Source: an uncultured Candidatus Saccharibacteria bacterium
Lineage (GTDB): Bacteria > Patescibacteriota > Doudnabacteria > UBA920
DNA: 64,000 bases
Assembly: GCA_964600695.1 (NCBI GenBank)
Contig: CAZRKK010000002.1
Span: forward strand, 5,354-69,353
Direction: 5' to 3'
Below the pieces are notes generated by a model. That model did no database searches. It saw only the letters and a program-made list of their open reading frames with translations, and was not told where the DNA came from. Positions 10,035 through 34,125 of the stretch are shown in pieces; the stretch's first letter is position 1, and each line of letters opens with the position of its first letter. The translations under genes were made by a program, and so were the position numbers.

Positions 10035-10616
10035 ATGAGCAGAATAGGAAAAAAACCAGTAATCTTAACTCAAGGCATCACCGCTGAGCTTAAGGATAAG
10101 CACCTCACTATCAAAGGTAGTAAAGGTACTTTAGAGTTGGATATTCACCCAAAAGTTTTAGTTGAAGTAAAAGATGGGGAAATCACTGTTGATGTTGCCA
10201 AGAAGGAAGACAAGCGCGAAAAAGCTCTTTGGGGCCTGTCTCGAGCTTTGGTACAGAATATGGTAGATGGATTAACAACTGGTTTTTCTAAGCAGTTAGA
10301 TATTGTTGGAGTTGGTTTTAAAGCAGAAATGCGTGGTCAAACTTTAGTTCTGAACTTAGGTTTTTCTCATGCTATTGATTTTGAAATTCCTGCCGGAATC
10401 GAAGTTAAAGTAGAAAAAGATCCTTCTAAAGTAACTATTGCTCAGTATCAAACAACTGTATCTCTTTCTGGAATCGATAAGCATTTAGTTGGTCAAGTTG
10501 CTGCTAATATCCGTGAGCTTAAAAAGCCAGAACCTTACAAAGGTAAAGGGATTCGTTATAGCGATGAAAATATCTTGCGTAAGGCAGGTAAGGTTGTTAA
10601 AGCAGTAGGAAAGTAA
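10035..10616 (+). CDS. rplF: 50S ribosomal protein L6
   Basis: MSRIGKKPVIL; two L6 repeats. Confidence 0.95.
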   Translation: MSRIGKKPVILTQGITAELKDKHLTIKGSKGTLELDIHPKVLVEVKDGEITVDVAKKEDKREKALWGLSRALVQNMVDGLTTGFSKQLDIVGVGFKAEMRGQTLVLNLGFSHAIDFEIPAGIEVKVEKDPSKVTIAQYQTTVSLSGIDKHLVGQVAANIRELKKPEPYKGKGIRYSDENILRKAGKVVKAVGK

Positions 10617-10638
10617 CCTCTAATAGAGAAATAATTAT

Positions 10639-12142: not shown

Positions 12143-13420
12143 ATGAATAAATTAAGCTTAATTTGGAAAACTAAAGATTTGCGTTGGAAGATCTTCATGG
12201 TCATGATGTTGCTTTTAGTGACTCGTGTTTTGGCTCATGTCCCAATTCCTGGGATTAGCGTCACTGGCTTGAAGGCTTTCTTCGAAAGCAATCAATTTTT
12301 AAACTTATTGAACGTTTTTTCTGGTGGTGGACTAAGTAACTTTTCTATCGCTATGCTTGGTGTTGGACCATACATCACAGCATCTATTATTATGCAGTTG
12401 TTGGTCATGATTGTTCCTTCACTTACAGAACTACAGAAAGAAAGTGGAGAAGCTGGTCGAGTTAAAATCAACCAGTACACTCGTTTTTTGACTTTGCCAT
12501 TAGCAGTTTTGTCTGGTTTCGGAACTATTCGATTATTACAAAGCCAAGGTGGGGCAGAGTTACTTGGAACTTTCTCTCCTTTCCAGTGGTTCCTAACTTT
12601 GTTAACAGTTACCGCTGGTACAATGTTGGTTATGTGGATCGGTGAAATCATTTCCGAATACGGAATTGGTAATGGTGTATCTTTAGTAATTTTCGCCGGT
12701 ATCGTTTCTCAGTTACCTAAGAGCGTTGGTTCGTTGGTTCAGTTATATGATCCAAGCCAATTACCAACCATTATTGGATTTGCTATTGTCGCTTTGATCG
12801 TTATCGCCAGTGTAGTATTTGTGACTGAAGCTCAGCGCAATGTCCCGGTTACGTATGCAAAGCGGGTGAGTGGAGATAAACAAGTTGGTGGAGTTAACTC
12901 ATTCTTACCGTTACGTCTTAACCAAGCAGGTGTTATTCCAATCATCTTCGCAATTTCATTATTGTTGTTCCCAGCGATTATTGCTCAGTTCTTCTTAAAT
13001 GCCAAGACTCCTTTGATTGCTGAATATGCCCAAAAAGCTATTGATTTTACAAATAATCAAGGCGTTTGGTATGGCGTATCTTACTTCCTATTAGTTGTTA
13101 TATTCACTTATTTCTACACTAATATTGTTGTAAATCCAGATGAAGTTTCCGAAAACATGCAACGCAGTGGTGGCTTTGTTCCTGGTATTCGCCCCGGGAA
13201 GCAGACTGCTGATTACTTATACAAAGTTTTGAACCGCATCACTTTGCCTGGATCCTTATTCCTTGGTTTAATCGCTATCCTGCCTTTCATCTTACAAACA
13301 TGGACAGGAACCCGAGCATTAACATTTGGTGGTACTGGATTGCTGATTGTAGTAGCGGTAGTAATTGAAAGTATCAAGCAAGTCGAGGCTCAGCTAACTA
13401 TGCACGACTATCAAAAATAA
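12143..13420 (+). CDS. secY: Preprotein translocase subunit SecY
   Basis: 425 aa, ~10 TM helices, typical SecY profile and position after L15. Confidence 0.95.
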   Translation: MNKLSLIWKTKDLRWKIFMVMMLLLVTRVLAHVPIPGISVTGLKAFFESNQFLNLLNVFSGGGLSNFSIAMLGVGPYITASIIMQLLVMIVPSLTELQKESGEAGRVKINQYTRFLTLPLAVLSGFGTIRLLQSQGGAELLGTFSPFQWFLTLLTVTAGTMLVMWIGEIISEYGIGNGVSLVIFAGIVSQLPKSVGSLVQLYDPSQLPTIIGFAIVALIVIASVVFVTEAQRNVPVTYAKRVSGDKQVGGVNSFLPLRLNQAGVIPIIFAISLLLFPAIIAQFFLNAKTPLIAEYAQKAIDFTNNQGVWYGVSYFLLVVIFTYFYTNIVVNPDEVSENMQRSGGFVPGIRPGKQTADYLYKVLNRITLPGSLFLGLIAILPFILQTWTGTRALTFGGTGLLIVVAVVIESIKQVEAQLTMHDYQK

Positions 13421-13909: not shown

Positions 13910-16468
13910 ATGCCTTTTGGATTTGAACTCAATACTGTAATTTATGCATCACTACTACTAGGAATTTTAGTAGTAGTGTTTTTGCTTGTCGCTGCTTATT
14001 ATATTCACAGGCATTGGTATTACAGTCATGTCATTTTACCCCGCACTAAAGAGTGGGTGTTTTTGGAAATTCAAATGCCAAAAGACAACAGCGAGGATAA
14101 AGAAAAATATCAACGCGATGAAGAAAAAAAATTACTAATTGGTATTGCCGAGCAATTATTCACAACTTTATCAGGAATTAGTCACACTAATTGGTTTTGG
14201 CAACCTAAAGAATATATAAGTTTTGAAATTGCGTGTACAGACAAAAAGATTTCCTTTTATATCAATTGTCCGCGTAAGCTTCAGGAGCTAATAGAAAAAC
14301 AAGTTCAAGCTCAGTACCCTCACGCTTTTATCGAGGAGATTAAAGGCTATAATCCCTTTCCAGAAACTGGGGAGATCGAAGCTACCGAGTTAAGATTGAC
14401 CAAGCCTTATATGTATCCTTTTCGTACTTACAAGAGTATGGAAACAGATCCATTGAATGCGTTAACAAACGCTATGTCAAAACTGAGCGATGGTGATGGG
14501 GCGGTTATTCAAATGATTTTGTATCCAGCAGGGGATCACTGGCAGCATCGTCCGCGGCACATGGCTTTAGAAATTCAGCAAGGTAAAAATCCGAACATTG
14601 TTGCCAAGAGTGCGTTTGGAAGATTTGCGCGCGAGGTAGGAAGCACAGCTAAGGATGGTGTCTTAGGTGGAACTCAGTTAAGTAAAGATCAAATGCAACA
14701 ACGTACCGATTTGTCGGGACGTTATTCGGCCATCAACTTAACTCCGATGCAACAAGACATGGTTAAGCGTTTCGAAGAAAAAGCTAGCCGCCCAGGCTTC
14801 TATACCAACATTCGTATTGTCACAGCATCACCAACTCCTGGAACAGCTAAAGTGAATATGCATAATTTAGTGTCTTCATTTTTGCAGTACAACATGCCGC
14901 CGTTTAATGGTTTTAGAGTTAAGCGTCGTGCTAAGAAGCGTATTATTAAAGATTATATTTTTAGAATTTATCGCCGCTACGGACGTAAGTCTATTTTAAA
15001 TACCGAAGAATTAACTAGTATTTGGCATCTTCCGACTCCATTTTTGGAAACACCTAATATTAAATGGTTGTTATCTAAAAAAGCTCCACCACCTATAAAC
15101 TTGCAACCAGAAGGAATATTACTAGGCCGAAATATATATCGTGGGCAGGAGACACCAATTCATATGGCACGTGATGATCGTCGTCGTCACATGTATATTT
15201 TGGGACGTACTGGTGTGGGTAAAACCGAAATCATGAAATACATGTCCGTTCAAGATATCAAGAACGGTGATGGAATTTGTATTATCGATCCTCATGGTGA
15301 TTTTATTGAAGATGTTTTACCTCACATTCCAAAAGAACGAGCCGAAGATGTAATCTTATTTGACCCATTCGATACCGACAGGCCGATGGGTTTGAACATG
15401 CTCGAAGTCACTAGTGAAGGTCAAAAAGATTTTGCTGTTCAAGAAATGATCTCTATCTTTTATAAATTAGTTACAGATCCTGCGATGCTTGGACCTATGT
15501 TCGAGCACAACATGCGTAATGCCATGCTAACCTTAATGGCTGACGAAGAAAATCCTGGAACTATTGTTGAAGTCCCACGTATATTTACGGACACTGAATT
15601 CCAAAAGTATAAAGTCTCTAAATTAAATGATCCTGTGGTAAGAGCATTTTGGGAGAAAGAAATGGCCAAGACTTCCGATTTTCATAAGTCGGAAATGTTA
15701 GGTTACTTAGTTTCTAAAGTAGGCCGCTTTGTAGAAAATTCCATGATGCGAAATATTGTTGGTCAACCAAAGAGTTCTTTTAACTTCCGTGATATCATGG
15801 ATAACAAAAAAATTCTTTTGGTGAATTTAGCAAAGGGTAAAGTAGGGGAGGTGAACGCAAAATTAATTGGCTTAATTTTAGTGAGTAAAATTCAAATGGC
15901 GGCATTGTCCCGTGCAGATATTCCAGAAAGCGAACGCCAAGATTTCTATTTATATGTTGATGAATTCCAAAACTTTATTACCGATGCTTTTTCTTCTATT
16001 TTGAGCGAAGCCCGTAAGTATCGATTGAATTTGATTATTGGTCATCAGTTCTTAGCTCAGTTGGGGCAAGCAGCTGGTGCGCAAGGTGCAGCTAGTAACG
16101 ATTTACGTGATGCTGTGTTTGGTAATGCTGGTAGTATGGTAACTTTCCGTATTGGTGTAGAAGATAGTGAAGTTATGGCAAAGGAGTTTGCACCAACTTT
16201 TAATGAGTTTGATTTATTAAATGTCGATAGATTTAATGCTTTTGTAAAGTTGATGATTAATGGAACAGCCAGCAAACCATTTAACATGGCCACATACCCC
16301 TTAGCTAAACCAACTGAAGATCAAAAGAAGACAGGGGATGCTATTCGACAGTTATCAAGGTTAAAATTTGGTCGTCCACGGGCCGAAGTTGAAGCAGAAA
16401 TCCTAGAAGCCAGCCAAGTTGCTGATATGATGGCGGCTGGTCCAGGGAGTATCGAGAAAACGGTTTAA
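13910..16468 (+). CDS. Membrane-anchored P-loop ATPase of the VirD4/TraG/TraD type IV coupling-protein family, with a ~380-aa N-terminal domain of unknown function
   Basis: Single N-terminal TM helix; Walker A ILGRTGVGKTE; Walker B LYVDEFQNF; C-terminal ARKYRLNLIIGHQFLAQL resembles the coupling-protein R-x-x-G...Q...QL motif. Confidence 0.6.
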   Translation: MPFGFELNTVIYASLLLGILVVVFLLVAAYYIHRHWYYSHVILPRTKEWVFLEIQMPKDNSEDKEKYQRDEEKKLLIGIAEQLFTTLSGISHTNWFWQPKEYISFEIACTDKKISFYINCPRKLQELIEKQVQAQYPHAFIEEIKGYNPFPETGEIEATELRLTKPYMYPFRTYKSMETDPLNALTNAMSKLSDGDGAVIQMILYPAGDHWQHRPRHMALEIQQGKNPNIVAKSAFGRFAREVGSTAKDGVLGGTQLSKDQMQQRTDLSGRYSAINLTPMQQDMVKRFEEKASRPGFYTNIRIVTASPTPGTAKVNMHNLVSSFLQYNMPPFNGFRVKRRAKKRIIKDYIFRIYRRYGRKSILNTEELTSIWHLPTPFLETPNIKWLLSKKAPPPINLQPEGILLGRNIYRGQETPIHMARDDRRRHMYILGRTGVGKTEIMKYMSVQDIKNGDGICIIDPHGDFIEDVLPHIPKERAEDVILFDPFDTDRPMGLNMLEVTSEGQKDFAVQEMISIFYKLVTDPAMLGPMFEHNMRNAMLTLMADEENPGTIVEVPRIFTDTEFQKYKVSKLNDPVVRAFWEKEMAKTSDFHKSEMLGYLVSKVGRFVENSMMRNIVGQPKSSFNFRDIMDNKKILLVNLAKGKVGEVNAKLIGLILVSKIQMAALSRADIPESERQDFYLYVDEFQNFITDAFSSILSEARKYRLNLIIGHQFLAQLGQAAGAQGAASNDLRDAVFGNAGSMVTFRIGVEDSEVMAKEFAPTFNEFDLLNVDRFNAFVKLMINGTASKPFNMATYPLAKPTEDQKKTGDAIRQLSRLKFGRPRAEVEAEILEASQVADMMAAGPGSIEKTV

Positions 16469-16509
16469 GTAGCTGTAAGCAGCCATAATTAGTAATAAGT
16501 CAGTGGGTA

Positions 16510-16538
16510 TTGACAAAATCAACTATTTGTGATATTAT
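16510..16538 (+). promoter_or_regulatory. Perfect-consensus sigma70 promoter TTGACA-N17-TATTAT
   Basis: TTGACA 16510-16515, 17-nt spacer, TATTAT 16533-16538; GGAGG RBS at 16578-16582. Confidence 0.65.
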
Positions 16539-16593
16539 ATTCGCAGTAGTTTTTTTGTAGTTTAAATCAATTTAGTTGGAGGACTTTGTTAAT

Positions 16594-17064
16594 ATGTATA
16601 AAAACTCGTTGGTCATGAAGATGATCCTAACGTTTGCGGCCTTTAGCGCCGTCGTTGTATTCCTGAACTACGTGGTCGGCATGCCGACTACTAAGCGCAT
16701 GAACTTCGTCTTGATGAGCTATGGTGTTGGTTCGGCCACCATCTTGGCTCTCGCGGCCGTTTTTCCGAGCCGTCTGACATCGGCGCTGTGCCGTCTTGTG
16801 CAGATTGGTTGGGCAGTGGCCATCGTTCTCGGTGGTTTTGCTATGATTATTATCATTGTGGTTGGTTTGGGGCAGTTTAACCTGCCGTTCCTATCGCTAC
16901 AGTGGTATAGCCTGTTCATGGCTTTAGGAATCTTGGGGGCCAGCGTGTTCATGTTTGTCAACGACTCGTATTTTGAAGTCGTTAACGAATATGAAAGCAA
17001 AGCTGGGAAGCCTAAGGTGGTGACACCGCCGGCAAACAGCACTTCGTCGAGCGTTTCGGCATAG
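16594..17064 (+). CDS. GC-rich (compositionally foreign) small 4-TM membrane protein (ATG 16594; ORF track uses TTG at 16576)
   Basis: Four hydrophobic helices; codons strongly G/C-ending (TCG, GCC, CCG, GTC) unlike flanking genes; own promoter and terminator. Confidence 0.6.
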   Translation: MYKNSLVMKMILTFAAFSAVVVFLNYVVGMPTTKRMNFVLMSYGVGSATILALAAVFPSRLTSALCRLVQIGWAVAIVLGGFAMIIIIVVGLGQFNLPFLSLQWYSLFMALGILGASVFMFVNDSYFEVVNEYESKAGKPKVVTPPANSTSSSVSA

Positions 17065-17091
17065 AAACTCCGCACAAGGGTTAGAAGTATT

Positions 17092-17128
17092 GGGTAAGAG
17101 CGAAAATATTCGCTTTTACCCTTTTTTT
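17092..17128 (+). terminator. Intrinsic terminator
   Basis: GGGTAAGAGCGAA-aata-TTCGCTTTTACCC hairpin + T7. Confidence 0.75.
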
Positions 17129-17169
17129 ATTGCCTAAAATTGCCATTTTAAAATTTCTGTTATCAGCTA

Positions 17170-17198
17170 TTGACAAAACATCAAAAATAGTGTATACT
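17170..17198 (+). promoter_or_regulatory. Consensus sigma70 promoter TTGACA-N17-TATACT followed by a ~180-nt structured leader
   Basis: TTGACA 17170-17175, TATACT 17193-17198; 11-bp perfect hairpin at 17234-17277; GGTCA/TGACC palindromes at 17276-17293 and 17331-17346; GGAGG RBS at 17371-17375. Confidence 0.6.
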
Positions 17199-17385
17199 GT
17201 TACTTAAACTAAATATTGGTTAGAAAGTGAATTACCTTCAGAAATTCAGATTTATCGAGATATGGTTTTCTGAAGGTCATGCACGTGTATGACTGTTGTA
17301 GCGCTGTAAATAAAAAAACAGCATTGTAACGGTCAATCACATGACCAAGTTTTCAAAAACAGCCTAAGGAGGGCTAATCAATACT

Positions 17386-18102
17386 ATGCAGAAATTCATT
17401 ATTTCGTTCGTTTTTGTCGCAATGTCACTTATGGCTGTTTCGTCGGCCTCGGCCCAGAATCCGGACTTGAACGTTCCGGTGCCTTCGGGAAAGACGCAGA
17501 CCACGAAGAGCCCGGACTTGAACGTTCCGGTGCCTAACAAGTCGGTTCAAAGTTCGGCTAACGTCTATAGGACGTACCGCAACACTACGGTCGTTAAGAA
17601 GTATTCCATGAACGGCGTCGACAAAGACGCTCGTGAAGTGAATGTCGCTCAGGACATTCGTATAAAAAAACTGGAAGACGGCAAGGCTAACTCGTCGGAC
17701 GTCGAAGCAGGATTTAAGTCGGTTGACGATCGTTTCGCGGCTAAGGATCAGGTGGATGCACGACAGGACCGAGAGCTCGGATATACTTTCTGGGCTTTCA
17801 TAATCATCCCGGTAGTCTTTCTGGTTCTGGCGTTGTTGTACTTCATGTTTGGAGGCAACAATAATAACGTTCAGGTTAACGGTGGTGGACATGCACCGGC
17901 ATACGTACCTCAGGCCCAGCCTGCAGTACAGCCGATACCATACTACCAGCCTATTCCTGCACAACCCGTTCCTGCGGCACAACCGGTTCCTGCAGCCAAC
18001 CAACAGCCAAGCGTAAATGTTCCGATCAATATTGCGGTCGAGCCGATTCAGATCGATCTCCGACCGTCGTTGCGTGGAACACCGCCGGCACCCGCTCAGT
18101 AG
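17386..18102 (+). CDS. GC-rich secreted/single-pass membrane protein with tandem PDLNVPVP repeats and a Pro/Gln-rich tail
   Basis: Signal peptide MQKFIISFVFVAMSLMAVSSASA; exact 24-nt direct repeat at 17461-17484 and 17512-17535; TM FWAFIIIPVVFLVLALLYFMF; tail PAVQPIPYYQPIPAQPVPAAQPVPA. Confidence 0.6.
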   Translation: MQKFIISFVFVAMSLMAVSSASAQNPDLNVPVPSGKTQTTKSPDLNVPVPNKSVQSSANVYRTYRNTTVVKKYSMNGVDKDAREVNVAQDIRIKKLEDGKANSSDVEAGFKSVDDRFAAKDQVDARQDRELGYTFWAFIIIPVVFLVLALLYFMFGGNNNNVQVNGGGHAPAYVPQAQPAVQPIPYYQPIPAQPVPAAQPVPAANQQPSVNVPINIAVEPIQIDLRPSLRGTPPAPAQ

Positions 18103-18109
18103 TGAGCAT

Positions 18110-18150
18110 CTCTCTTACAGAGAGCAAGGTAAAACTTGCTCTCTTTTTTC
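18110..18150 (+). terminator. Intrinsic terminator (two tandem hairpins + T-run)
   Basis: ctctcttacagagag and AGAGCAAG-gtaaaa-CTTGCTCT followed by TTTTTTC. Confidence 0.7.
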
Positions 18151-18212
18151 ATTTTTATAAAAAATAGTGGTATAATTAAAACAACTTTAAATTGTTAATT
18201 CGAAACAAAAAT

Positions 18213-21200
18213 ATGGCTAAAGCCGAAATGGCTCGTCAACCAGATCAAGGTCCAGAACCGGCAATTGACTTGTCGAAAACACTCAAAACCAGTGTAGATG
18301 ATGCTAAAAATAGAGCACGACCACGAGGCCGTGATGTTGATTTTGCTATCCAGCAGAATGATATGCGCGAAGCTAATTTAAGACAGGGTCATCCAGACAT
18401 ATCTGATAAAAAAGAGTTTATTCGACGGGAAAAGGCAAAGAACGAGGCGCGTAGTAAGTCTAAATCTGAAAAGGGACCTAAAAAGAATGAAGTAATTCTT
18501 CAACCTATAGCTCCGGCAGAAAAATTAAAAGCTGTAGTTAACCAAGAAAAAGCCGCGCAGAAACAAAAACCAGAGCAAAAGCCGGAAACACAGCCAGAAC
18601 AAAAGATAGCTCAACAAGAACAAAAAGCAGCCCAAGAAACCAGTAAAGTTGTAGAAAGTGTAGTTCAGGAAAGCACTAAAGAGATGTCCGCAGAAGTGGA
18701 CAAGGCACTTGCCGTACATGCAATTAGTCCAGAACATGCTCAGCAAGCCAAAGCAGTTATAAACAATGAACAGGTAAAGCAAGGAGTTTTTTCTAGAGCT
18801 TTTGGTGCTATAAAAGACAAAGCAGTGGGTGTTAAAGAGTGGTTTGCAGATAGTCCTAGGTTAACTTCACTTTTGGTTGGTGCGGGTACTGGTATGGGTG
18901 TTCGTTACGCTGTTAAGGCTGGGTTTATTGCTGCATTTGGAGCAAACTTACCTTGGTTGGTTGCCGCAGGTGCCACTGCAGGTGGTTTACTAGAAGGTGG
19001 GCGTTCATTTTGGCGTGAATCAAAATCCTATCAATCTAAAGAGATTATGGATCGGTTCAGAAGCGCGGATTATCTAGAAAAGGCAGCCATGCTTTCTAAG
19101 CTTGAGGAAGCATACAAAACCCAAAGATTTGATGCGTCTCCAGAAGGTTACCAAGAAATTGGTACAGCTTTGGCTCATGCTCGAACAGAAATGCAACTTG
19201 AATTAGACAAAAAGGATGGCAAGTTTGCTAATCATTCCGATCGAGATAAAATTCAATATATTTTAAATTTATCACAAGGTATTAAGGGTGAAATTCATAA
19301 AGATAATCGTGGTAAGGAAGCCAGAAAGCTTATTCGTGACATCGAAAAGAGCTTAGAGTACAAGCGTGATTTTAAAGGTGTCTTACAGAACAAAAAGATG
19401 GTAGTTGCCAAGGCAGCTCTTAAAGGTGCAGCTTATGGTGGGCTGGGTTCATTAATCGGTGGGGCAGTATCACACTATTTCTTCGAAAGTGGAACAACTC
19501 AAACTGTCAGCCATGTTGTCGAGAACAGACCTACTGTGGCAGATCATTTTACAAAACATTTAGATCATCGAGGTTTAACCGGTGGTGCTCGTGATTCATT
19601 GCATGATTTGATAGAAGAACAAAGAGGTATTGATCCTAATTTTGCCGAAGGAGTCACTGTAGAGCAACTAGTTTATGCAGAAGACACTCTCGCTAAAGAG
19701 GCTATTAAAAATGGCGTTAAGTCTGGCGTTTCGGAGCATACTTGGACTCATGATGAGTTGATGCGAGCCTTAGAAAAATCTGGAGCGGTTGGAGATAGTT
19801 CTACGCTTACTGAAGCAGGAGAAAGGAATATCGGACGATTGATTTCGCATCGACCTCATTTCTTGTCCGAAGCTACCAAAGAGAAAATGCTTGATTTTAC
19901 ACCTAAAGATTTTAATGTAGTTGTTGAGCAAATTACTTCTCAACCAGAAAATATCGTTCTCTCAAACGAAGATTATGCAGCTATTATTGGTGCACTAACC
20001 CTAGTAGCGGCTTCAGAAGTGGCTAGTGCCGCCGACAGAAGAATCGCTAAGAATCGGCTTGAACAAATGCAAGCGAATCCTCCAACTGGCCAGCCAGGGG
20101 ATGGTGTAGAAACAGCTCCAGCTAATAATGTTGTATGGCCTACAGAAGGTGTTCTTACTGCAGAAGAAGCACGTGTGGATAATAGAAAATTCCCTAATGG
20201 CCCACCACCGTCACCATTTGATGGTAATGTAGAAACTACTCCTACACCTAAACCAGAGGGTAGTCCTTTTGATGACGAAAAAAAGCAAAATGCAGAGTCG
20301 ACTACTAATAAAGCAGGTAAGGTTGAGGAAATTGACGAAGATGTTGAAGCTCAAGTGGATGTACAAGATTTGCCTGGTGTAGAAAAAATCAAAGACTCGG
20401 AAGTTACTCCCGATGCAATTAATCGAAAACTGAAGAGTGCAAAAGTTAATGCAGAAGTAGTACCATGGCCTTTAGAAAAGATTACCAACAAACAGAAAGG
20501 ACAAATTAACAGATTAACTGATTTATATATTTCTTCGGCACGCAAGTTAAACGCCTTAAATATTACAAATAAGGTTGTCTTGAATTTTTATCCAACAGGT
20601 TCAAGAGAGTTAGATTTTACAGATTCTGAATTTACCGCTGGTATTCCTCTTAGTGATAAAACTTATAATAAAAAGAGCTTCGAGAGCTTAGTAGATAGGA
20701 TGATTGAAACTAAGATTTCCGAAAAGTTTGCTGAAATACAAAATAACTATGCATTTCAAACAGAGATGCCTGTCATAGGAAATTCAGAGGATGATCAAGC
20801 TGTTGAACAGTATAAAGCTTTAGATAAATTCCAGCGAAACATGGAAGCAATCGACGCAAAAGAATTAAAACGACTAACTTCTGGACTTAAGAAAGTTACA
20901 ATTGGTGACTATTCATTTATAGGTACTGATGAGGTGGTTCTACCAATGTTTATTAGAGACAACAGGGGTTATCATTATAAATCTTTCAAGCCTAACCAAT
21001 TAAAGGGTATGTTGAAAGAGTATTCCAAAGATCGGTTTGCGTTAAAGCCGATGGATTTAAAAGAGCAGAATGATAAATATCCAAATATTGGAGCAGATAA
21101 AAACTTTTACGATAATATCGAGGAAGCTGAGAGGATAAAAGCAGAAGAATTAGTATACAGTGTTATTGAAAATGAATTCAAAGATGGTTTTCCACCAAAC

Positions 21201-21806
21201 GTAAAGGTATTGTTTTCGGATAGATTCCAGTCAAAGCCAGGTGTCTTATACCTCGACATGTCAAAGTTTGACCAAGCATATATTAGTCGTCAGCTTCACC
21301 AAGGATTGCGTCGTTCTGCGCCAGATCGTTTACAGCGCACTCCTGGTCCTGTTAAAGAGCGTTTAAAGCGGGTTTCTCCTGATTATGGGAATAAAAAGTC
21401 TGACCAAGACAAAGCCATTGAAGCAGCTGTTGATAGAATAATTCGACCCGAAGATTGGGAGAAAAAAGAAACTGGGCCAGCTAATTTAAACCATATTGAA
21501 GAACAGAACGGAGAAGATGAGCTCTATAGTTTACTTGGAGACATAGATAAGAAATATCCAGGGTCTATCTCCGAAAGCATGCAAAAAAAGATCTCTAGTT
21601 ACTTAAAAGACAATAATTTATCAGCAGAGGATTTACTAACCGCCGATAAATTACCTAAAATTACGAGTGTTCTTCCTAAAAAACTTGAGCAGTACATAGC
21701 CGAAGAGTCGTTTGCTAAACTAGAAAAACTGGCAATGGCCGACGAGGATTATACTGACGAAGGCATTAGATTAAAAAATCAGTTAGAAGAATTCATCAAA
21801 AAATAA
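18213..21806 (+). CDS. Giant hypothetical protein (~1197 aa): K/Q/E-rich disordered N-terminus, Gly-zipper hydrophobic hairpin, large C-terminal region without recognised catalytic motif
   Basis: Continuous 3.6-kb ORF; promoter atagTGgTATAAT at 18166-18176; hydrophobic LTSLLVGAGTGMGVRYAVKAGFIAAFGANLPWLVAAGATAGGLL; start ATG 18213 (ORF track 18192 is TTG). Confidence 0.6.
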   Translation: MAKAEMARQPDQGPEPAIDLSKTLKTSVDDAKNRARPRGRDVDFAIQQNDMREANLRQGHPDISDKKEFIRREKAKNEARSKSKSEKGPKKNEVILQPIAPAEKLKAVVNQEKAAQKQKPEQKPETQPEQKIAQQEQKAAQETSKVVESVVQESTKEMSAEVDKALAVHAISPEHAQQAKAVINNEQVKQGVFSRAFGAIKDKAVGVKEWFADSPRLTSLLVGAGTGMGVRYAVKAGFIAAFGANLPWLVAAGATAGGLLEGGRSFWRESKSYQSKEIMDRFRSADYLEKAAMLSKLEEAYKTQRFDASPEGYQEIGTALAHARTEMQLELDKKDGKFANHSDRDKIQYILNLSQGIKGEIHKDNRGKEARKLIRDIEKSLEYKRDFKGVLQNKKMVVAKAALKGAAYGGLGSLIGGAVSHYFFESGTTQTVSHVVENRPTVADHFTKHLDHRGLTGGARDSLHDLIEEQRGIDPNFAEGVTVEQLVYAEDTLAKEAIKNGVKSGVSEHTWTHDELMRALEKSGAVGDSSTLTEAGERNIGRLISHRPHFLSEATKEKMLDFTPKDFNVVVEQITSQPENIVLSNEDYAAIIGALTLVAASEVASAADRRIAKNRLEQMQANPPTGQPGDGVETAPANNVVWPTEGVLTAEEARVDNRKFPNGPPPSPFDGNVETTPTPKPEGSPFDDEKKQNAESTTNKAGKVEEIDEDVEAQVDVQDLPGVEKIKDSEVTPDAINRKLKSAKVNAEVVPWPLEKITNKQKGQINRLTDLYISSARKLNALNITNKVVLNFYPTGSRELDFTDSEFTAGIPLSDKTYNKKSFESLVDRMIETKISEKFAEIQNNYAFQTEMPVIGNSEDDQAVEQYKALDKFQRNMEAIDAKELKRLTSGLKKVTIGDYSFIGTDEVVLPMFIRDNRGYHYKSFKPNQLKGMLKEYSKDRFALKPMDLKEQNDKYPNIGADKNFYDNIEEAERIKAEELVYSVIENEFKDGFPPNVKVLFSDRFQSKPGVLYLDMSKFDQAYISRQLHQGLRRSAPDRLQRTPGPVKERLKRVSPDYGNKKSDQDKAIEAAVDRIIRPEDWEKKETGPANLNHIEEQNGEDELYSLLGDIDKKYPGSISESMQKKISSYLKDNNLSAEDLLTADKLPKITSVLPKKLEQYIAEESFAKLEKLAMADEDYTDEGIRLKNQLEEFIKK

Positions 21807-22234: not shown

Positions 22235-22882
22235 ATGGATAAATCAGCAAATTTTGCTTTGATCGTGCAAATGATCGAAGCTGCAGAAAAGAATATTCAA
22301 TCGGCTAAGCATTTATTGCGAGAAATGGCCGGTGGAACTGTATCTAAATCTTCCACTAACTTTTTAGAAAAGGCTAGTGGTCTTGATGTTAGTCAAGGTG
22401 GTAAAGTTGTCGAGGGTGTGTTTGATGGACAAAACATGATTGGTCCGGATAGCAAACAGTACCCAGTTCCAGCTAATTATGCATCCAAATCCAAATTAGT
22501 TGAAGGTGATGTGCTTAAATTAACAATCGCAGATGACGGCTCGTTTATTTATAAGCAGATTGGGCCAGTTGAGCGTCGCAAGTTGATTGGTGTGTTAATG
22601 CAGGACGAAAATGGTGATTATAAAGTTATCGCAGATGGCAAAACTTTTCGGGTTTTATTGGCTTCACTTACTTATTTTAAAGCTCAGGGTGGTGACGAAG
22701 TAACTATTGTTGTCCCTAGTGAAGGTGATACTCAATGGGCTGCAGTAGAAAATGTGATCAAGCATTTAGGTGGTGACGGAAGTTCCGACGGGGAATTTAG
22801 TGCATCCGCTGGGCTGCAAGACCAAAAAGATGAAGACATGGAAGCTGAGGGTTTAGCCTCTGGCGAGACAGAAGAATTTTAA
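22235..22882 (+). CDS. Hypothetical protein with acidic C-terminal tail
   Basis: 215-aa ORF; upstream ttgTGgTATAGT extended -10 at 22148-22158 and CA-rich SD-less leader. Confidence 0.55.
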   Translation: MDKSANFALIVQMIEAAEKNIQSAKHLLREMAGGTVSKSSTNFLEKASGLDVSQGGKVVEGVFDGQNMIGPDSKQYPVPANYASKSKLVEGDVLKLTIADDGSFIYKQIGPVERRKLIGVLMQDENGDYKVIADGKTFRVLLASLTYFKAQGGDEVTIVVPSEGDTQWAAVENVIKHLGGDGSSDGEFSASAGLQDQKDEDMEAEGLASGETEEF

Positions 22883-30850: not shown

Positions 30851-31489
30851 ATGCTTATTCCGGCAATATTAGAAAATAATAAAAAGAAATATTTAGAAAA
30901 TCTAAAAGCAGTTTTAGCATTGAAGAATATCAAGTCTATACAAATAGATTTTGCCGATGGGGAATTTGTGGCCACTAAAACTTTACCAATCGCCGAGATA
31001 GAACTTCCTGCAAGGTCTAAAATTTTGTTCGAAGCACATTTGATGGTTAAAGAACCCAAGGATTTTGTTTTGTATCAAAAGGCTGGGTTTAAAAAAATCA
31101 TCGTTCATTACGAAGCTTTTAAAAGTGAACTTGATTTAGAAGCAGCTATAGAAGAAATAAAAAAGTTAAAAATGATTCCTGCAATAGCCATTTCTCCAAC
31201 TAGTGAAATTTCTGTAATTCGTTATCATACTGATACAATCAAGGACTTCACTTTGTTGGCTGTGGTTCCGGGTAGGCAAGGACAAAAAATGTTACCAGAA
31301 ACTTTTGATCGACTTCGAGAATTAAGAGATCATGCCCCAGGTGCAAATATCGAGATAGATGGCGGAGTTGATGGTAAAAATATTGCTTCTTTAATAGACG
31401 CCGGCGCAACAGATTGCGTAGCAGGTTCAAGTTTACTAAGAGGTGATATTAAAGAGAATTATAAAGTGCTTATGGAGGCTTTAAAATAA
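30851..31489 (+). CDS. rpe: Ribulose-phosphate 3-epimerase-like TIM-barrel protein
   Basis: IQIDFADGEFV and EAHLMVKEP resemble Rpe metal-binding segments; position between rpiB and tkt. Confidence 0.65.
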   Translation: MLIPAILENNKKKYLENLKAVLALKNIKSIQIDFADGEFVATKTLPIAEIELPARSKILFEAHLMVKEPKDFVLYQKAGFKKIIVHYEAFKSELDLEAAIEEIKKLKMIPAIAISPTSEISVIRYHTDTIKDFTLLAVVPGRQGQKMLPETFDRLRELRDHAPGANIEIDGGVDGKNIASLIDAGATDCVAGSSLLRGDIKENYKVLMEALK

Positions 31490-32340
31490 TGTCAAAACTT
31501 TCATCAACAGATTTACAACTAACTGCTAATAAAATTCGAGAAGATATTATCAGTATGTTAGTGGAGGCGGGGAGTGGTCACAGCGCCGGACCTTTAGGTA
31601 TGGCTGATGTTTTCACTGCTTTGTATTTTGAAGTCATGAATATTAATCCTCATGACCCTAATTGGGAAGAACGTGATTGGTTAATTTTATCGTGTGGCCA
31701 TATTTGTCCAGTGTTGTACGCAACAATGTCTGAACGTGGCTATTTCCCAGCGTCAGAATTAAAATCGCTTCGCAAGCTTGGTACTCGTTTGCAAGGACAT
31801 CCTCATAACTTATCTTTACCTGGCATAGAAACAACTAGCGGACCCTTAGCACAGGGTGCTTCTCAGGCTGTGGGAGTAGCTTTAGCAATGCGGATGAGTG
31901 GTAAAAAGAATCGTGTTTATTTAGTGATGTCGGATGGTGAGCAAAATGAAGGTCAGATTTGGGAAGCTGTTATGTTGGCTGGCAAAGAAAAACTTCATAA
32001 TCTTACTGCCATTATAGACCGCAATAATATTCAAATTGATGGTTATACAGAAGATGTTATGCCTTTGGACAATTTGAAAGCAAAGTACGAAGCCTTTAAT
32101 TGGCACGTTATAGAAGTTGATGGACACAATATTCAGGCAGTGATTAATGCCTATCGTGAAGCAGAGGCGGTGTATGAAAAACCAACAGTCATTATTGCGC
32201 ATACCATTCCAGGGAAGGGCGTGGACTTTATGGAGGGTAAGTTTGAATGGCATGGTAAACCACCAAAAGCTGACGAAGCCAAATTAGCTCTGCAAGAGCT
32301 ACGTACATTGCAAGGAAAAATTAAAAGTGAACATGAATAA
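31489..32340 (+). CDS. Transketolase, N-terminal (TPP-binding) subunit
   Basis: GSGHSAGPLGMADV ... DGEQNEGQIWEA. Confidence 0.85.
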   Translation: MSKLSSTDLQLTANKIREDIISMLVEAGSGHSAGPLGMADVFTALYFEVMNINPHDPNWEERDWLILSCGHICPVLYATMSERGYFPASELKSLRKLGTRLQGHPHNLSLPGIETTSGPLAQGASQAVGVALAMRMSGKKNRVYLVMSDGEQNEGQIWEAVMLAGKEKLHNLTAIIDRNNIQIDGYTEDVMPLDNLKAKYEAFNWHVIEVDGHNIQAVINAYREAEAVYEKPTVIIAHTIPGKGVDFMEGKFEWHGKPPKADEAKLALQELRTLQGKIKSEHE

Positions 32341-32367
32341 TTTTATTAATATAATTAACCAAAAATC

Positions 32368-34125
32368 ATGACAATTCTAATAGGGCTTATTGTAATAATA
32401 TTTTTAATTACTTTAAGCAGAAGAGTTTCTAAAATTGAAGATGCTCTTAAAATCAATCCTGCATTAGGTCGGGCTGTACAACAGCCAGTACCACAGCCAC
32501 AAACCGCACAACCATTACAAGTTGCTCAAACAGCAAAGGTTGCCCAAAAAGCTAGTGCTACTCAACCGGTTGTTGTTGAAACTAATCATCTTGATTCAAA
32601 ATCTTTTGTTAATGCCTTGCCAAAAATTGGGGTCATTGCTCTAGTATTTGGTTTAGCATTTTTCCTAAAATATGCGATTGATCAAGGATGGATTAGTGAA
32701 TCTTTGCGTTTGGGTTTGGGTGCAGTGGTTGGTGGATTGTTATTGGTTCTATTTTATTTATGGAAAGAAAAATATGCTAAGTATGCCTTAGTCTTGGCTG
32801 GTGGAGGATTAGCTATTTGGTATTTAACAATTTTTGCAGCAGTAGAAATGTATGCCATGTTGAGCATGAATGGTGGATTAATCATTTTGTCGATAGTTAC
32901 TATAATCGGTTTATTGCTGGCATATAAAACAAAGTCTCCGAGTTTATCAGCTTTGGCTTGGGGAGGCGCATTTTTATCTCCAATCATATTGTCGTTTAAT
33001 TCCAGTTCTTATAGTTTAATGTTGATTTATATCAGCATCGTCGTGTTGGGATTACTAACATCTATTGTTTATACGAAGTCTTACAAATTATTTGCACTTA
33101 TAATTGCTGGAACTGCCGTTAACTTATTATTCGGGTTGTTCGCAGGATTGTTCACAGAAGAATATTATATTAGAACTCTAATCTTTTTAATAATCCATCT
33201 ATGTGCTAATACGTTTGTAATTACTAATCTTATTCGATCCGATAAAGCAGAGAATAAAGAAATAAATCAAACAGAGTTCGGGCTTTTATTAGTTTTGATA
33301 TTTGCAATTTTTGTGTTGCCAACAGCGTTGATTGCATACTTTAAGTTTAATGATTACTCTACACTTATCATGACTGCTTTGGCTGTTTGGACTTTCCTAA
33401 TTTATGCATTTATTGATCGATTAGAGCTCACTAAGCTTAATTATTTGTTGTCTGGGTTTGGCACATCTCTTTTAGTAATTAGTGTGATTTGGCAGTTTGG
33501 TGATAATTCTCAAGTAGTTATGTTTTATATTCTGGGTTTGGTGGGGATTATCGTTGGTTATATTCAAAAACGAGCGGAACTTCGAGCGTGGGGAGTTTCT
33601 ACAGTTATGGTTGGTCTAGTCTCAGCTTGTTTGGTTAGTTATGGTTCTGTTCCACAGTTGATTGTCACTCAAAAATTTGGTCTCGAAATGCTCGGGTTGG
33701 TAGCATTGGGTGTCGCATATATTTTCTTTAAGGAAGATCAACTCTCAGAATTCGAACATGATATTCATTTAGCAATTCAGTATCTCATAGCTGGATTTGC
33801 ATGGTTCTTTATTTCTTGGGACTTGTATAACTACTATTCTGCTTTCGACCAAGTTAATCAAAGAAATCTATCCTTAAGTTTGTGGTGGTTGGTTTATGCA
33901 ACACTCTTACTTGGAGCTTCTGTTACTCACGTTCTTAAACCTTTAAGAAAAGTAGGTTTGTTGCTATTTGGTTTAGTAATTATCAAAGTGTTTCTTTATG
34001 ACGTGCAGAGTCTAGATATGGTTTATAGAATAATTTCATTTATCAGTTTAGGTGTAATTCTGTTGGTGGTCTCATTTATCTATCAACACAACAAAGAAAA
34101 AATTATCAAATATATTGAATCTTAA
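32368..34125 (+). CDS. Polytopic integral membrane protein (585 aa, ~14 TM) encoded between the two transketolase halves
   Basis: Hydrophobic throughout; stop overlaps the next start (TAATG at 34123-34127). Confidence 0.7.
   Translation: MTILIGLIVIIFLITLSRRVSKIEDALKINPALGRAVQQPVPQPQTAQPLQVAQTAKVAQKASATQPVVVETNHLDSKSFVNALPKIGVIALVFGLAFFLKYAIDQGWISESLRLGLGAVVGGLLLVLFYLWKEKYAKYALVLAGGGLAIWYLTIFAAVEMYAMLSMNGGLIILSIVTIIGLLLAYKTKSPSLSALAWGGAFLSPIILSFNSSSYSLMLIYISIVVLGLLTSIVYTKSYKLFALIIAGTAVNLLFGLFAGLFTEEYYIRTLIFLIIHLCANTFVITNLIRSDKAENKEINQTEFGLLLVLIFAIFVLPTALIAYFKFNDYSTLIMTALAVWTFLIYAFIDRLELTKLNYLLSGFGTSLLVISVIWQFGDNSQVVMFYILGLVGIIVGYIQKRAELRAWGVSTVMVGLVSACLVSYGSVPQLIVTQKFGLEMLGLVALGVAYIFFKEDQLSEFEHDIHLAIQYLIAGFAWFFISWDLYNYYSAFDQVNQRNLSLSLWWLVYATLLLGASVTHVLKPLRKVGLLLFGLVIIKVFLYDVQSLDMVYRIISFISLGVILLVVSFIYQHNKEKIIKYIES

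What the first reader, a model, noticed from the sequence alone, without database searches (positions are those of the whole stretch)
16501..18150. Two compositionally foreign GC-rich membrane-protein cassettes, each with a perfect consensus promoter and its own terminator
Genes 16594-17064 and 17386-18102 use mostly G/C-ending codons (TCG, CCG, GCC, GTC, CTG), unlike every neighbouring gene in this AT-rich genome. Each is an independent monocistronic unit driven by a near-perfect sigma70 promoter (TTGACA-N17-TATTAT and TTGACA-N17-TATACT) with a GGAGG RBS and a clean rho-independent terminator. The two promoters share the context (g)tatTGACAAAA. Product 1 is a 4-TM protein. Product 2 has a signal peptide, two PDLNVPVP repeats encoded by an exact 24-nt direct repeat, one TM and a Pro/Gln-rich tail. 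Foreign codon usage combined with native-looking optimal expression signals suggests recently captured and highly expressed surface factors, or possibly engineered insertions.
Basis: seen in the sequence. Interest (0 to 1): 0.8.

Follow-up and report, generated by a model that had tools for sequence, protein, structure and literature searches.

The report
Native GC-rich envelope gene pair
Two small membrane-protein genes in an AT-rich ultra-small bacterium really do use strikingly GC-rich codons, but they are old native genes, and the odd codons seem to be kept by selection for tightly folded messenger RNA rather than by recent foreign or engineered origin.

Summary
Genes A (16594-17064) and B (17386-18102) have GC3 of 0.64 and 0.56, against 0.31 ± 0.04 for 64 other genes. 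They also carry the two best sigma70-type promoters and two of the best terminators in 12 kb. The interpretation of recent capture or engineering fails.

- The same pair sits after the same T4SS-coupling-protein-like ATPase in at least 9 independent assemblies. Diverged copies (25-50% identity) occur in five further lineages.
- Both promoters, a ~190-nt structured leader in front of B and an RBS hairpin are conserved in those lineages.
- Synonymous sites have turned over (dS about 0.8-1.0) while GC3 stayed near 0.6. Polarised changes are about balanced (55 S>W against 39 W>S), not 4:1 as decay predicts.
- The bias is codon-specific (Ser TCG, Pro CCG). It recurs in B orthologues, differs from GC-rich relatives, and uses codons that ribosomal genes avoid.
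- In 14 of 16 orthologues the native coding sequence folds better than synonymous shuffles (z -2.7 to -5.6). Six control genes do not.
- Close strains carry mosaic alleles, with recombination breakpoints inside A and B.

Best reading: a native, fast-evolving, recombining envelope-protein pair whose mRNAs are selected to be highly structured. Function is unknown and expression was not tested.

The parts
13910..16468 (+). Upstream anchor: an 852-aa T4SS coupling-protein-like ATPase (TrwB_AAD_bind, DUF87, T4SS-DNA_transf). It is an 'orphan': no VirB4 is in the window.
   Evidence: Pfam hits and NCBIfam hits. Full-length match to phrog_5156. 461 relatives found in genome contigs. GC3 0.33.
16510..16538 (+). 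Promoter of gene A: TTGACA-17-TATTAT with a TGTG -16 element and the -35 context TATTGACAAAA.
   Evidence: 11 of 12 consensus match. Conserved in L002, L021, L094, L001 and L092.
16521..16551 (+). Inverted repeat bracketing the -10 box of promoter A (AACTATTTG ... CAGTAGTT). It looks like an operator.
   Evidence: L021 has ACTATTTG/CAAATAGT and L094 has ACTATCTG/CAGATAGT, a symmetric compensatory change. Inference only.
16578..16582 (+). GGAGG ribosome-binding site of A, 11 nt before the ATG.
   Evidence: Read from the sequence.
16594..17064 (+). Gene A: a 156-aa four-helix membrane protein. Its loops GMPTTKRMNF and LPF-x-S-x-QWY are conserved. GC3 is 0.64.
   Evidence: The family has only 14 clusters at 50% identity among 1.84 billion proteins. 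No Pfam, NCBIfam, PADLOC, PHROG or PDB match.
17092..17128 (+). Intrinsic terminator of A: a 13-bp stem followed by T7.
   Evidence: Conserved in the strains.
17170..17198 (+). Promoter of gene B: TTGACAAAA-N-AAAAATAGTGTATACT.
   Evidence: 11 of 12 match. Nearly identical in L002, L008, L012, L021, L093 and L094.
17199..17385 (+). Structured 5' leader of B, with its core at 17227-17376. It has two long hairpins plus a small hairpin that presents the GGAGG (17368-17372).
   Evidence: MFE -55.3 kcal/mol, z -5.8. Consensus of 37 pairs, 8 of them covarying. The covariance model hits only upstream of B orthologues, including the untrained L012. No Rfam family.
17386..18102 (+). Gene B: 238 aa. Signal peptide (ASA|Q), two PDLNVPVP repeats, a helical ectodomain, one TM, and a Pro/Gln-rich tail with a conserved C-terminal motif SVNVPINIAVEPIQIDLRP. 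GC3 is 0.56.
17461..17535 (+). Two exact 24-nt direct repeats (17461-17484 and 17512-17535) encoding PDLNVPVP.
17632..17685 (+). Hypervariable patch of B (aa 83-100, first ectodomain helix). Up to 22 differences per 60 nt between otherwise near-identical strains.
18119..18150 (+). Intrinsic terminator of B: a 10-bp stem followed by T6.
18160..18176 (+). Own promoter of the next gene: extended -10 TGGTATAAT preceded by the same AAAAATAGTG motif as promoter B.
   Evidence: repeat D11.
18213..21806 (+). Downstream anchor: a 1197-aa protein of unknown family with normal AT-rich codons (GC3 0.28).
22235..22882 (+). p215, the conserved partner of the ATPase across the family. The segment between the ATPase and p215 is the variable region that holds A and B.
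   Evidence: tblastn across 86 loci.

Best explanation
A and B are old, vertically inherited, lineage-specific envelope-protein genes. They are not foreign cassettes. They sit in the variable segment between a T4SS-coupling-protein-like ATPase and its conserved partner p215, in one subclade of Saccharibacteria-like Patescibacteria.

Each gene is its own transcription unit. Each has a near-consensus promoter, a GGAGG RBS and a hairpin terminator. B also has a conserved ~190-nt structured leader.

The coding sequences evolve fast. Close strains exchange pieces of them by homologous recombination, which the highly conserved regulatory flanks would facilitate. A patch of the B ectodomain is diversified.

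The GC-rich, TCG/CCG/CpG-rich synonymous codon usage is held at equilibrium. The most likely force is selection on the mRNA itself: GC-rich, self-complementary codons make the whole coding region fold tightly. Together with the 5' leader and the 3' hairpin this should give compact, long-lived messages for abundant, strain-variable surface proteins.

Shown here: the anatomy, synteny, conservation of the signals, mosaic alleles, stationarity of GC3, the codon-specific bias and the excess folding of the mRNA.

Inferred: high expression, mRNA longevity as the selected trait, surface exposure, and any functional link to the ATPase.
For: - Synteny. The same order ATPase-A-B-big protein is found in L001, L006 and L087-L093, which come from different SRA runs or NCBI assemblies. 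Diverged orthologues lie at the same place in L002, L008, L012, L021 and L094.
- Signals. Promoters A and B, the B leader and the RBS hairpin are conserved in those lineages. In close strains the intergenic parts are 96-100% identical while A and B are 87-98%.
- Mosaic alleles. Window against L089 shows almost no differences up to 16808, then 38 in 16809-17048. There are few differences across terminator A, promoter B and the leader, then 68 in 17409-17708, and almost none after. dS of A and B reaches 0.23-0.46 against 0.04-0.10 in the flanks.
- Stationarity. Window against L001 has flank dS of about 0.95, yet both keep GC3 at about 0.6. S/W-discordant synonymous sites are 0.31 observed, against 0.34 expected at equilibrium and 0.42 under decay. 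Polarised synonymous changes are S>W 55 and W>S 39, p = 0.12 against 1:1 and p = 2e-6 against 4:1.
- Codon-specific bias. TCG and CCG dominate in B of L001, L092, L093, L002, L021, L008, L094 and the B-like gene of L010, while Gly and Ala stay AT-ending. RSCU correlation with any relative is at most 0.40. Ribosomal-protein genes avoid TCG and ACG, at 1% each.
- mRNA folding. A is -0.38 and B -0.34 kcal/mol per nt, against -0.21 to -0.25 for the six controls. Native sequence against synonymous-codon shuffles gives z of -2.7 to -5.6 in 14 of 16 orthologues. This includes L012, which lacks the GC3 rise. Six control genes give +0.7 to -1.2.
- Covariation in A. The A coding-region consensus has 11 compensatory pairs, against 6.7 ± 1.6 in shuffles (3 of 500 reach it) and 2-6 in slid controls.
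- Boundaries. The GC rise starts at the start codon and ends at the stop codon.
Against: - No expression, half-life or structure-probing data were available, so 'abundant' and 'long-lived' are inferences.
- The B coding region has no well-conserved consensus fold: the covariation term is +7. The A covariation test uses six related sequences and a structure derived from them.
- L008 A and B show no folding excess.
- Synonymous shuffling changes codon-junction dinucleotides. With dinucleotide-preserving shuffles B reaches only z -1.65, from 20 shuffles.
- Selection for folding does not obviously explain why TCG and CCG in particular are favoured while GGC and GCC are not.
- B alone shows some excess of S>W changes, 32 against 17.
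- Other GC-rich membrane-protein genes occur in the same variable region of other lineages. That could instead point to frequent gene import there.
Confidence: 0.5

Rival explanations
1. Recent horizontal capture from a GC-richer donor (host actinobacterium, phage or other bacterium) into a native expression slot, followed by ongoing amelioration.
For: - GC3 is 6.5-8.5 sd above the genome.
- TCG and CCG preference resembles high-GC actinobacteria, the known hosts of cultivated Saccharibacteria (own knowledge; hosts per PMC10633639).
- A decaying relic would need an ancestral GC3 of about 0.86-0.90, which is possible for an actinobacterial donor.
- GC-rich islands are common in this variable region in other lineages.
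Against: - No homologue was found outside the clade in 5.8 billion proteins, in 1.84 billion representatives (gene A only), in viral contigs, or in JGI metagenome contigs (gene A only).
- The pair is syntenic and has co-diverged with its flanks (dS 0.8-1.0) across strains and lineages.
- The promoters and the leader are inherited together with the coding sequence.
- Substitution flux is near 1:1 rather than 4:1, p = 2e-6.
- Gly and Ala codons are not GGC or GCC.
- The boundaries fall exactly at the start and stop codons.
Confidence: 0.07
2. A recombination hot spot with GC-biased gene conversion or repeated allele import. A and B are diversifying-selection loci that recombine often. Biased repair, or import from a pool of GC-richer alleles in related lineages, raises their GC3.
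For: - Mosaic blocks and locally elevated dS show frequent recombination.
- Saccharibacteria are naturally competent and integrate DNA by homologous recombination (PMC10633639).
- Recombining bacterial genes tend to have higher GC3 (PMC4450053).
- Relatives span 34-54% GC.
- GC3 elevation differs between lineages: A is background-like in L002, L008 and L094, and B is background-like in L012.
Against: - The effect, GC3 0.31 to 0.6, is far larger than I recall being reported for bacterial gBGC (own recollection; the paper's text was not read here).
- The conserved but partly unconstrained intergenic pieces, loops and 3' UTRs stay AT-rich, and the boundary is at the codons.
- The bias is codon-specific (TCG, CCG) rather than uniform W to S.
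- The codon pattern does not match the GC-rich relatives sampled, r at most 0.40.
- None of the GC-rich relatives carries A or B.
- It does not explain the folding excess against synonymous shuffles.
Confidence: 0.2
3. Codon-level translational control. A and B deliberately use the genome's rarest codons (TCG, CCG, ACG, CTG). These draw on otherwise idle tRNAs (C34 isoacceptors). That would either avoid competition with bulk translation, or slow or condition translation of very strongly transcribed membrane proteins.
For: - TCG and CCG dominate in B across lineages even where overall GC3 is only 0.46.
- Ribosomal-protein genes avoid exactly these codons.
- The bias is confined to the coding sequence.
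- Both products are membrane proteins behind the best promoters in the region.
Against: - There are no tRNA genes in the window or in 55 related loci, so tRNA supply could not be examined.
- Other monocistronic membrane-protein genes with the same promoter style use normal codons, at 52006-51473 and 38509-38423.
- It does not predict the non-random arrangement of synonymous codons.
Confidence: 0.15
4. Engineered insertion, assembly chimera, or an overlapping antisense gene that forces the composition.
For: - The architecture looks like textbook expression cassettes.
- Long antisense ORFs overlap both genes, at 16719-17075 and 17425-18003.
Against: - At least 9 independent metagenome or MAG assemblies carry the pair, with natural divergence.
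- Published Saccharibacteria cassettes carry hph, GFP, mCherry or NanoLuc, codon-optimised to the AT-rich genome (PMC10633639).
- The antisense ORF of B is in the codon-aligned frame. It is open simply because TTA, CTA and TCA are avoided. No antisense ORF of 70 aa or more overlaps B in L008.
Confidence: 0.02

Closest known systems
Phage 'morons' (independent promoter-gene-terminator units of deviant composition inserted between conserved genes)
   Same: Each gene is a self-contained transcription unit. Its base composition differs sharply from its neighbours. It lies between conserved genes in a variable slot. The products are small membrane or surface proteins.
   Different: - The locus is core chromosome (ribosomal operon, SecY, DnaX), not a prophage.
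- The pair is vertically inherited with conserved signals across lineages.
- There are no viral homologues.
- The composition is stationary rather than imported.
Mosaic, recombining surface-protein loci under diversifying selection (for example pneumococcal pspA or pbp mosaics, neisserial opa or pilin genes)
   Same: Allele blocks are swapped between close strains with breakpoints inside the genes. The flanks are conserved. A localised hypervariable patch lies in an exposed domain.
   Different: There are no silent cassettes or repeats in the window. dN/dS is only 0.04-0.23 overall. The accompanying gene-specific synonymous codon bias is, as far as I know, not a feature of those systems.
Hypervariable extracellular repeat protein gene with atypical codon use in a Gracilibacterium (PMC6851277)
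   Same: It is a Patescibacteria surface-protein gene that is hypervariable in the population. It uses GC-ending codons (GAC) far above the genome norm.
   Different: That case is a tandem 9-mer repeat region within one gene. Here two whole non-repetitive coding sequences are affected, and the bias is conserved across lineages.
Stabilising structured 5' UTRs of abundant envelope-protein mRNAs (E. coli ompA-type leaders; own knowledge)
   Same: A long leader with stable hairpins close to the 5' end lies ahead of a strongly expressed envelope-protein gene, and the RBS follows the hairpins.
   Different: There is no sequence or Rfam relationship. A stabilising role is inferred, not tested. The leader could equally be a regulatory switch.
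Small inner-membrane T4SS subunits (VirB2, VirB3 or PrgI, VirB6, VirB8) of the Patescibacteria MPF-FATA-like system (PMC12102498)
   Same: Small polytopic or bitopic membrane proteins are encoded next to a T4SS-type ATPase.
   Different: There is no HMM or fold match. The neighbouring ATPase is an orphan coupling-protein homologue far from any virB4. That paper notes such homologues are common and possibly exapted.

Membership tests
Recently acquired horizontal-transfer island | Base composition or codon usage deviates from the host genome | tested here: met
   GC3 is 0.64 and 0.56 against 0.311 ± 0.039. RSCU correlation with the organism's own genome is -0.06.
Recently acquired horizontal-transfer island | Patchy presence: absent from close relatives, or homologues present in a plausible donor | tested here: not met
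   The pair is present in all close strains and in diverged lineages at the same site. There are no homologues outside the clade.
Recently acquired horizontal-transfer island | Mobility signatures: integrase or transposase, tRNA target, flanking direct repeats | tested here: not met
   No tRNA gene. No flanking repeats beyond chance. The neighbours are core genes.
Recently acquired horizontal-transfer island | Ongoing amelioration: an excess of GC>AT synonymous substitutions | tested here: not met
   S>W 55 against W>S 39, which rejects the 4:1 expectation at p = 2e-6. The site pattern fits stationarity.
Phage moron | Autonomous promoter-ORF-terminator unit | tested here: met
Phage moron | Located within a prophage or phage genome | tested here: not met
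   The context is core chromosome. There are no relatives in IMG/VR and no PHROG match for A or B.
T4SS membrane subunits (VirB2, VirB3, VirB6, VirB8 or PrgI, PrgH, PrgL) | Profile or fold similarity to a known subunit family | tested here: not met
   No Pfam or NCBIfam hit. Foldseek against PDB gives a best E of 0.79 for A. PDB sequence profiles give nothing meaningful. The model of B was too poor to search, pLDDT 48.9.
T4SS membrane subunits (VirB2, VirB3, VirB6, VirB8 or PrgI, PrgH, PrgL) | Encoded near virB4 | tested here: not met
   No VirB4 among the window ORFs searched, roughly 12-48 kb. The ORFs at 1-12 kb and after 48 kb were not run against Pfam.
Diversity-generating retroelement target | Reverse transcriptase plus a template repeat matching the variable region | tested here: not met
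   No second copy of any part of A or B in 64 kb. The only RVT_3 hit is an RNase H-like protein. The rest of the genome was not available.
Known cis-regulatory RNA family (Rfam) for the B leader | Match to a curated covariance model | tested here: not met
   The best hits are noise, E at least 0.37 and far below gathering scores. Nothing reaches gathering score in the whole window.
Translationally optimised highly expressed genes | Codon usage like that of ribosomal-protein genes | tested here: not met
   Ribosomal-protein genes use TCG at 1%, ACG at 1% and CCG at 10%. A and B use TCG at 50-69% and CCG at 52-83%.

The most novel reading that the evidence does not exclude
The cassettes are cargo rather than housekeeping. 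They lie next to a coupling-protein-like ATPase. They carry 'universal' consensus sigma70/GGAGG/terminator signals and TCG/CCG-rich, actinobacterium-like codons. On this reading they are built to be expressed in, or their very stable structured RNAs delivered to, the host bacterium on which the epibiont lives. This would be a bacterial analogue of T-DNA. Nothing here supports transfer: no oriT, no relaxase, no border repeats. Gly and Ala codons are not host-like. The evidence does not exclude it.

A milder version is that gene-specific selection for mRNA folding alone drives and maintains a twofold GC3 shift over speciation time. That version is my best explanation.
Probability: 0.03. Interest if true: 0.95.

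Novelty: new variant of a known kind. Interest (0 to 1): 0.55.

Why it matters
Atypical codon usage is routinely read as a mark of recent horizontal transfer. Here a twofold GC3 excess is old, stationary, codon-specific, and tied to excess mRNA folding. It sits in two native genes of a reduced, AT-rich Patescibacteria genome.

If selection on mRNA structure or stability can hold such a shift, compositional HGT detectors will mis-call genes of this type. It would also be a clean natural example of synonymous sites being shaped by RNA-level selection.

The locus further offers:
- two uncharacterised, clade-restricted envelope protein families next to an 'orphan' T4SS coupling-protein homologue;
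- a new conserved structured leader RNA;
- a strain-variable, recombining surface patch.

All three are candidates for host-contact biology in epibiotic bacteria that can now be manipulated genetically.

Tried and rejected
- Family assignment. Pfam, NCBIfam, PADLOC and PHROG scans of A, B and the unannotated neighbours gave nothing for A or B. PDB sequence profiles gave nothing or noise. Foldseek of the A model against PDB found only generic helical bundles, E at least 0.79. The afdb50 library was unavailable. The AlphaFold model of B was too poor for a fold search.
- Other collections. Viral contigs held no relatives. JGI metagenome contigs held none.
- RNA families. Rfam gave nothing.
- Discrete motifs. 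I looked for a DNA motif (uptake or methylation site) behind the CpG excess. Only compositional enrichment of CG-containing 4- and 5-mers appeared, with no repeated longer word.
- DGR. There is no template copy in the window.
- tRNA supply. No tRNA genes are in the window or in 55 loci.
- Donor among GC-rich relatives. Their codon usage (AGC/TCC, GGC, GCC) does not match, and they lack A and B.
- Translational optimisation. Rejected, because ribosomal genes avoid these codons.
- Antisense ORFs. Judged a by-product of avoiding TTA, CTA and TCA.
- Errors along the way. A first attempt at the synonymous-shuffle test timed out. The first dS table used truncated gene calls for B in L087 and L089, and was redone.
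Full report
**1. Context**

The window is 38.6% GC and is core chromosome of a Saccharibacteria-like member of the Patescibacteria. It holds the following genes:
- a ribosomal-protein operon;
- SecY (12143-13420);
- a 131-aa acidic protein;
- an 852-aa T4SS coupling-protein-like ATPase (13910-16468);
- genes A and B;
- a 1197-aa protein of unknown family;
- a 104-aa and a 215-aa protein (the latter called p215 here);
- GtrA, DnaX, HtrA and RuvX;
- glycolysis and pentose-phosphate genes.

No VirB4 was found among the ORFs searched (roughly 12-48 kb). No tRNA gene and no Rfam family at gathering score is present in the window. The closest ATPase homologues come from MAGs labelled Candidatus Saccharibacteria, Doudnabacteria or Patescibacteria. 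A survey of Patescibacteria T4SS genes reports thousands of such coupling-protein homologues that lie away from virB4 and may have been exapted (PMC12102498).

**2.

- A and B have GC3 of 0.64 and 0.56. The 64 other ORFs have mean 0.311, sd 0.039 and maximum 0.40, so z is 8.5 and 6.5.
- Ser is TCG in 19 of 32 codons (background 8%). Pro is CCG in 18 of 31 (11%). TCT and TTA are almost absent.
- CpG is enriched (observed/expected 1.18 and 1.34 against 0.89), mostly as NCG codons.
- The two promoters are the only 11-of-12 consensus matches in 12 kb and two of five in the 64 kb.
- The two terminators are among the three longest stems found in the 12 kb scanned.
- The 24-nt exact repeat, the GGAGG sites and the shared TATTGACAAAA context are as described.
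- The GC rise begins at each start codon and ends at each stop codon.

**3. Not a chimera, not engineered, not recent**

*Synteny.* The order ATPase-A-B-large protein recurs in nine other assemblies from different SRA runs or GenBank MAGs (L001, L006, L087-L093). An iterative profile search of all ORFs in 86 related loci finds diverged A and B at the same position in L002, L008, L021 and, for A only, L012. The B orthologue of L012 was recognised by its position, its domain architecture and a leader hit. A further locus, L094, was reached from the representative library.

*Family size.* The A family comprises only 14 clusters at 50% identity among 1.84 billion representatives. The 5.8-billion-protein search returns 7 hits for A and 6 for B, and every hit whose contig was retrieved lies in this same locus. 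Viral contigs and JGI metagenome contigs hold none.

*Signals.* The expression signals travel with the genes.
- Promoter B (TTGACAAAA ... AAAAATAGTGTATACT) is almost invariant in L002, L008, L012, L021, L093 and L094.
- Promoter A keeps its -35 context, its TGTG -16 element and an inverted repeat around the -10 box that changes symmetrically between L021 and L094.
- The RBS of B sits in a conserved small hairpin.

**4. A conserved structured leader**

The 187 nt between promoter B and its ATG fold to -55.3 kcal/mol, z -5.8. An alignment of ten lineages gives a 37-pair consensus with 8 covarying pairs. A covariance model built on the core finds only the sites upstream of B orthologues in 1.26 Mb. 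These include an untrained hit in L012, E 3e-4. Rfam has no match. This is a new B-specific leader motif. Whether it acts as a stabiliser or as a switch was not tested.

**5. Fast, mosaic evolution of the coding parts**

In close strains the intergenic parts are 96-100% identical but A and B only 87-98%.

| Comparison with the window | L006 | L089 | L087 |
|---|---|---|---|
| dS of A | 0.075 | 0.275 | 0.461 |
| dS of B | 0.352 | 0.270 | 0.231 |
| dS of the flanking genes | 0.04-0.10 across all three | | |

A 60-nt difference profile shows sharp blocks. Against L089 there are few differences up to 16808, then 38 in 16809-17048. Few differences follow through terminator A, promoter B and the leader. 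Then come 68 in 17409-17708, and almost none after. So allele segments are exchanged by recombination with breakpoints inside the genes. This is consistent with the natural competence and homologous recombination shown for Saccharibacteria (PMC10633639).

dN/dS is 0.04-0.23. Amino-acid change is concentrated in aa 83-100 of B, in TM3 of A and in the A tail. No template copy for a retroelement mechanism is present in the window.

**6. The GC-rich codons are maintained, not decaying**

Window and L001 differ by dS of about 0.95-1.0 in the flanks and 0.8-1.05 in A and B. They therefore co-diverged, yet both keep GC3 at about 0.6.

- *Two-state estimate.* The flanking genes give exp(-λT) of about 0.27-0.31. 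A neutral relic would therefore need an ancestral GC3 of about 0.86-0.90. It would also show 42% S/W-discordant synonymous sites. Observed is 31%, against 34% expected at stationarity.
- *Polarised changes.* Synonymous changes are S>W 55 and W>S 39. This is compatible with 1:1 (p = 0.12) and rejects the roughly 4:1 expected under decay (p = 2e-6). The first version of this count gave the same conclusion.

**7. The bias is codon-specific and family-specific**

- TCG and CCG dominate Ser and Pro in B of every lineage except L012. This includes the B-like gene of L010, which is too diverged for the profile search. Gly and Ala stay AT-ending.
- GC-rich relatives (GC3 0.60-0.67) prefer AGC/TCC, GGC and GCC. 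They correlate with A plus B at r of at most 0.40. None of them has A or B.
- The window's ribosomal-protein genes raise NNC codons, as highly expressed genes commonly do (own knowledge). They avoid TCG and ACG, at 1% each.
- A and B therefore combine the best promoters with the rarest codons.
- Two other monocistronic membrane-protein units with the same promoter style use normal codons.

**8. mRNA folding**

- The coding regions fold to -0.38 (A) and -0.34 (B) kcal/mol per nt, against -0.21 to -0.25 for the six controls.
- I shuffled synonymous codons within each gene, which leaves the protein and the codon counts unchanged. The native sequence is then more stable in 14 of 16 A and B orthologues, z -2.7 to -5.6. 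This includes L012 A and B, which lack the GC3 rise. Six control genes give +0.7 to -1.2, and L008 A and B are exceptions.
- Dinucleotide-preserving shuffles give z -4.9 for A and -1.65 for B, the latter from 20 shuffles.
- A six-strain consensus for the A coding region has 152 pairs, and 94.7% of cells are paired. It has 11 compensatory pairs against 6.7 ± 1.6 in shuffles (3 of 500 reach it) and 2-6 in slid controls.
- B has no well-conserved consensus: the covariation term is +7.

I read this as selection for generally compact, stable messages rather than for one specific fold. CpG-rich codons are self-complementary and would serve that end.

**9. Proteins**

*Gene A.* It is a four-helix membrane protein, mean pLDDT 71.6. 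Its two best-conserved segments are GMPTTKRMNF and LPF..S.QWY. These are the loops between TM1 and TM2 and between TM3 and TM4, so they lie on the same face of the membrane.

*Gene B.* It has a cleavable-looking signal peptide, short repeats, a helical ectodomain, a TM preceded by aromatic residues, and a Pro/Gln-rich tail ending in a conserved motif.

No known family or fold matches either protein. A link to the neighbouring ATPase rests on gene adjacency only.

**10. Verdict**

The finding is a real and striking compositional anomaly. It marks an old, native, rapidly evolving and recombining pair of envelope-protein genes. Their synonymous sites are under a coding-sequence-limited constraint.

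- The best-supported mechanism is selection for structured mRNA.
- Codon or tRNA-level control, and recombination-associated GC bias, remain live alternatives.
- Recent capture and engineering are rejected.
- Expression level, mRNA half-life and protein function remain untested.

Noticed in passing
window 17199-17385 (core 17227-17376); also L002 10611-10793, L008 11235-11363, L021 11326-11473, L094 1216-1338, L012 13277-13385: A conserved, strongly structured leader RNA of about 150-190 nt, specific to gene B. It has covarying stems and an RBS-presenting hairpin. It has no Rfam family, so it is a candidate new cis-regulatory or stabilising RNA motif.
   Followed up: yes
window 16521-16551; L021 about 10581-10620; L094 about 530-570: An inverted repeat brackets the -10 box of promoter A. 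L021 has ACTATTTG...CAAATAGT and L094 has ACTATCTG...CAGATAGT, a symmetric compensatory change. It looks like an operator for a dimeric regulator.
   Followed up: partly
window 18160-18176: The large downstream gene has its own extended -10 promoter (TGGTATAAT). It is preceded by the same AAAAATAGTG motif as promoter B. A, B and the big gene are therefore three separate units that may share a regulator.
   Followed up: partly
window 38581-38375, minus strand: A mini-cassette lies between the GAPDH and PGK genes on the opposite strand. It has a near-consensus promoter (TTGACAAAA-N-TTTAAT, 38581-38553), a GGAGG, and a 28-aa single-TM micro-ORF (38509-38423, MRKDIKILIIAYLFGIVILAVGISFLPN). A strong terminator follows. 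Its codons are normal and AT-rich.
   Followed up: partly
window 52059-51440, minus strand: Another monocistronic unit in the same style: ATTGACAAAA -35 context, GGAGG, a 177-aa multi-TM protein (52006-51473) and a terminator. Its codons are normal (GC3 0.33). The promoter style is therefore common, and only A and B carry the codon anomaly.
   Followed up: partly
window 13910-16468 and 22235-22882; loci L007-L086: The coupling-protein-like ATPase and the 215-aa protein form a conserved pair across hundreds of related genomes. The segment between them (0.1-7 kb) is highly variable. It often holds GC-rich genes for membrane or secreted proteins, for example L041 12033-13112 (GC 0.61 against 0.45) and L071 10903-12366. 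The ATPase matches phrog_5156 over its full length.
   Followed up: partly
L010 15537-16244 (minus) and L009 9617-10282 (minus): In lineages lacking A, a B-like gene lies inverted downstream of the giant protein. It has a signal peptide, Cys pairs, a coiled coil, an LWW-TM and a tail. It has a TTGACAAAA promoter, a GGGCCTAAGGAGGGCC RBS hairpin and, in L010, the same TCG/CCG bias (GC 0.53 against 0.40).
   Followed up: partly
window 18429-18490: There is a 33-45-nt indel polymorphism between strains in the Lys/Glu/Gln-rich N-terminal region of the 1197-aa protein. This gene diverges as fast as A and B at the protein level (dN/dS about 0.1) but keeps AT-rich codons.
   Followed up: no
window 31489-35135: Transketolase is split into an N-terminal gene (31489-32340) and a C-terminal gene (34125-35135). 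A 585-aa DUF2339 membrane-protein gene (32368-34125) lies between the two halves.
   Followed up: no
window 2092-2185: Two near-consensus promoters lie back to back: minus strand at 2120-2092 and plus strand at 2157-2185. They are just upstream of the ribosomal-protein operon.
   Followed up: no
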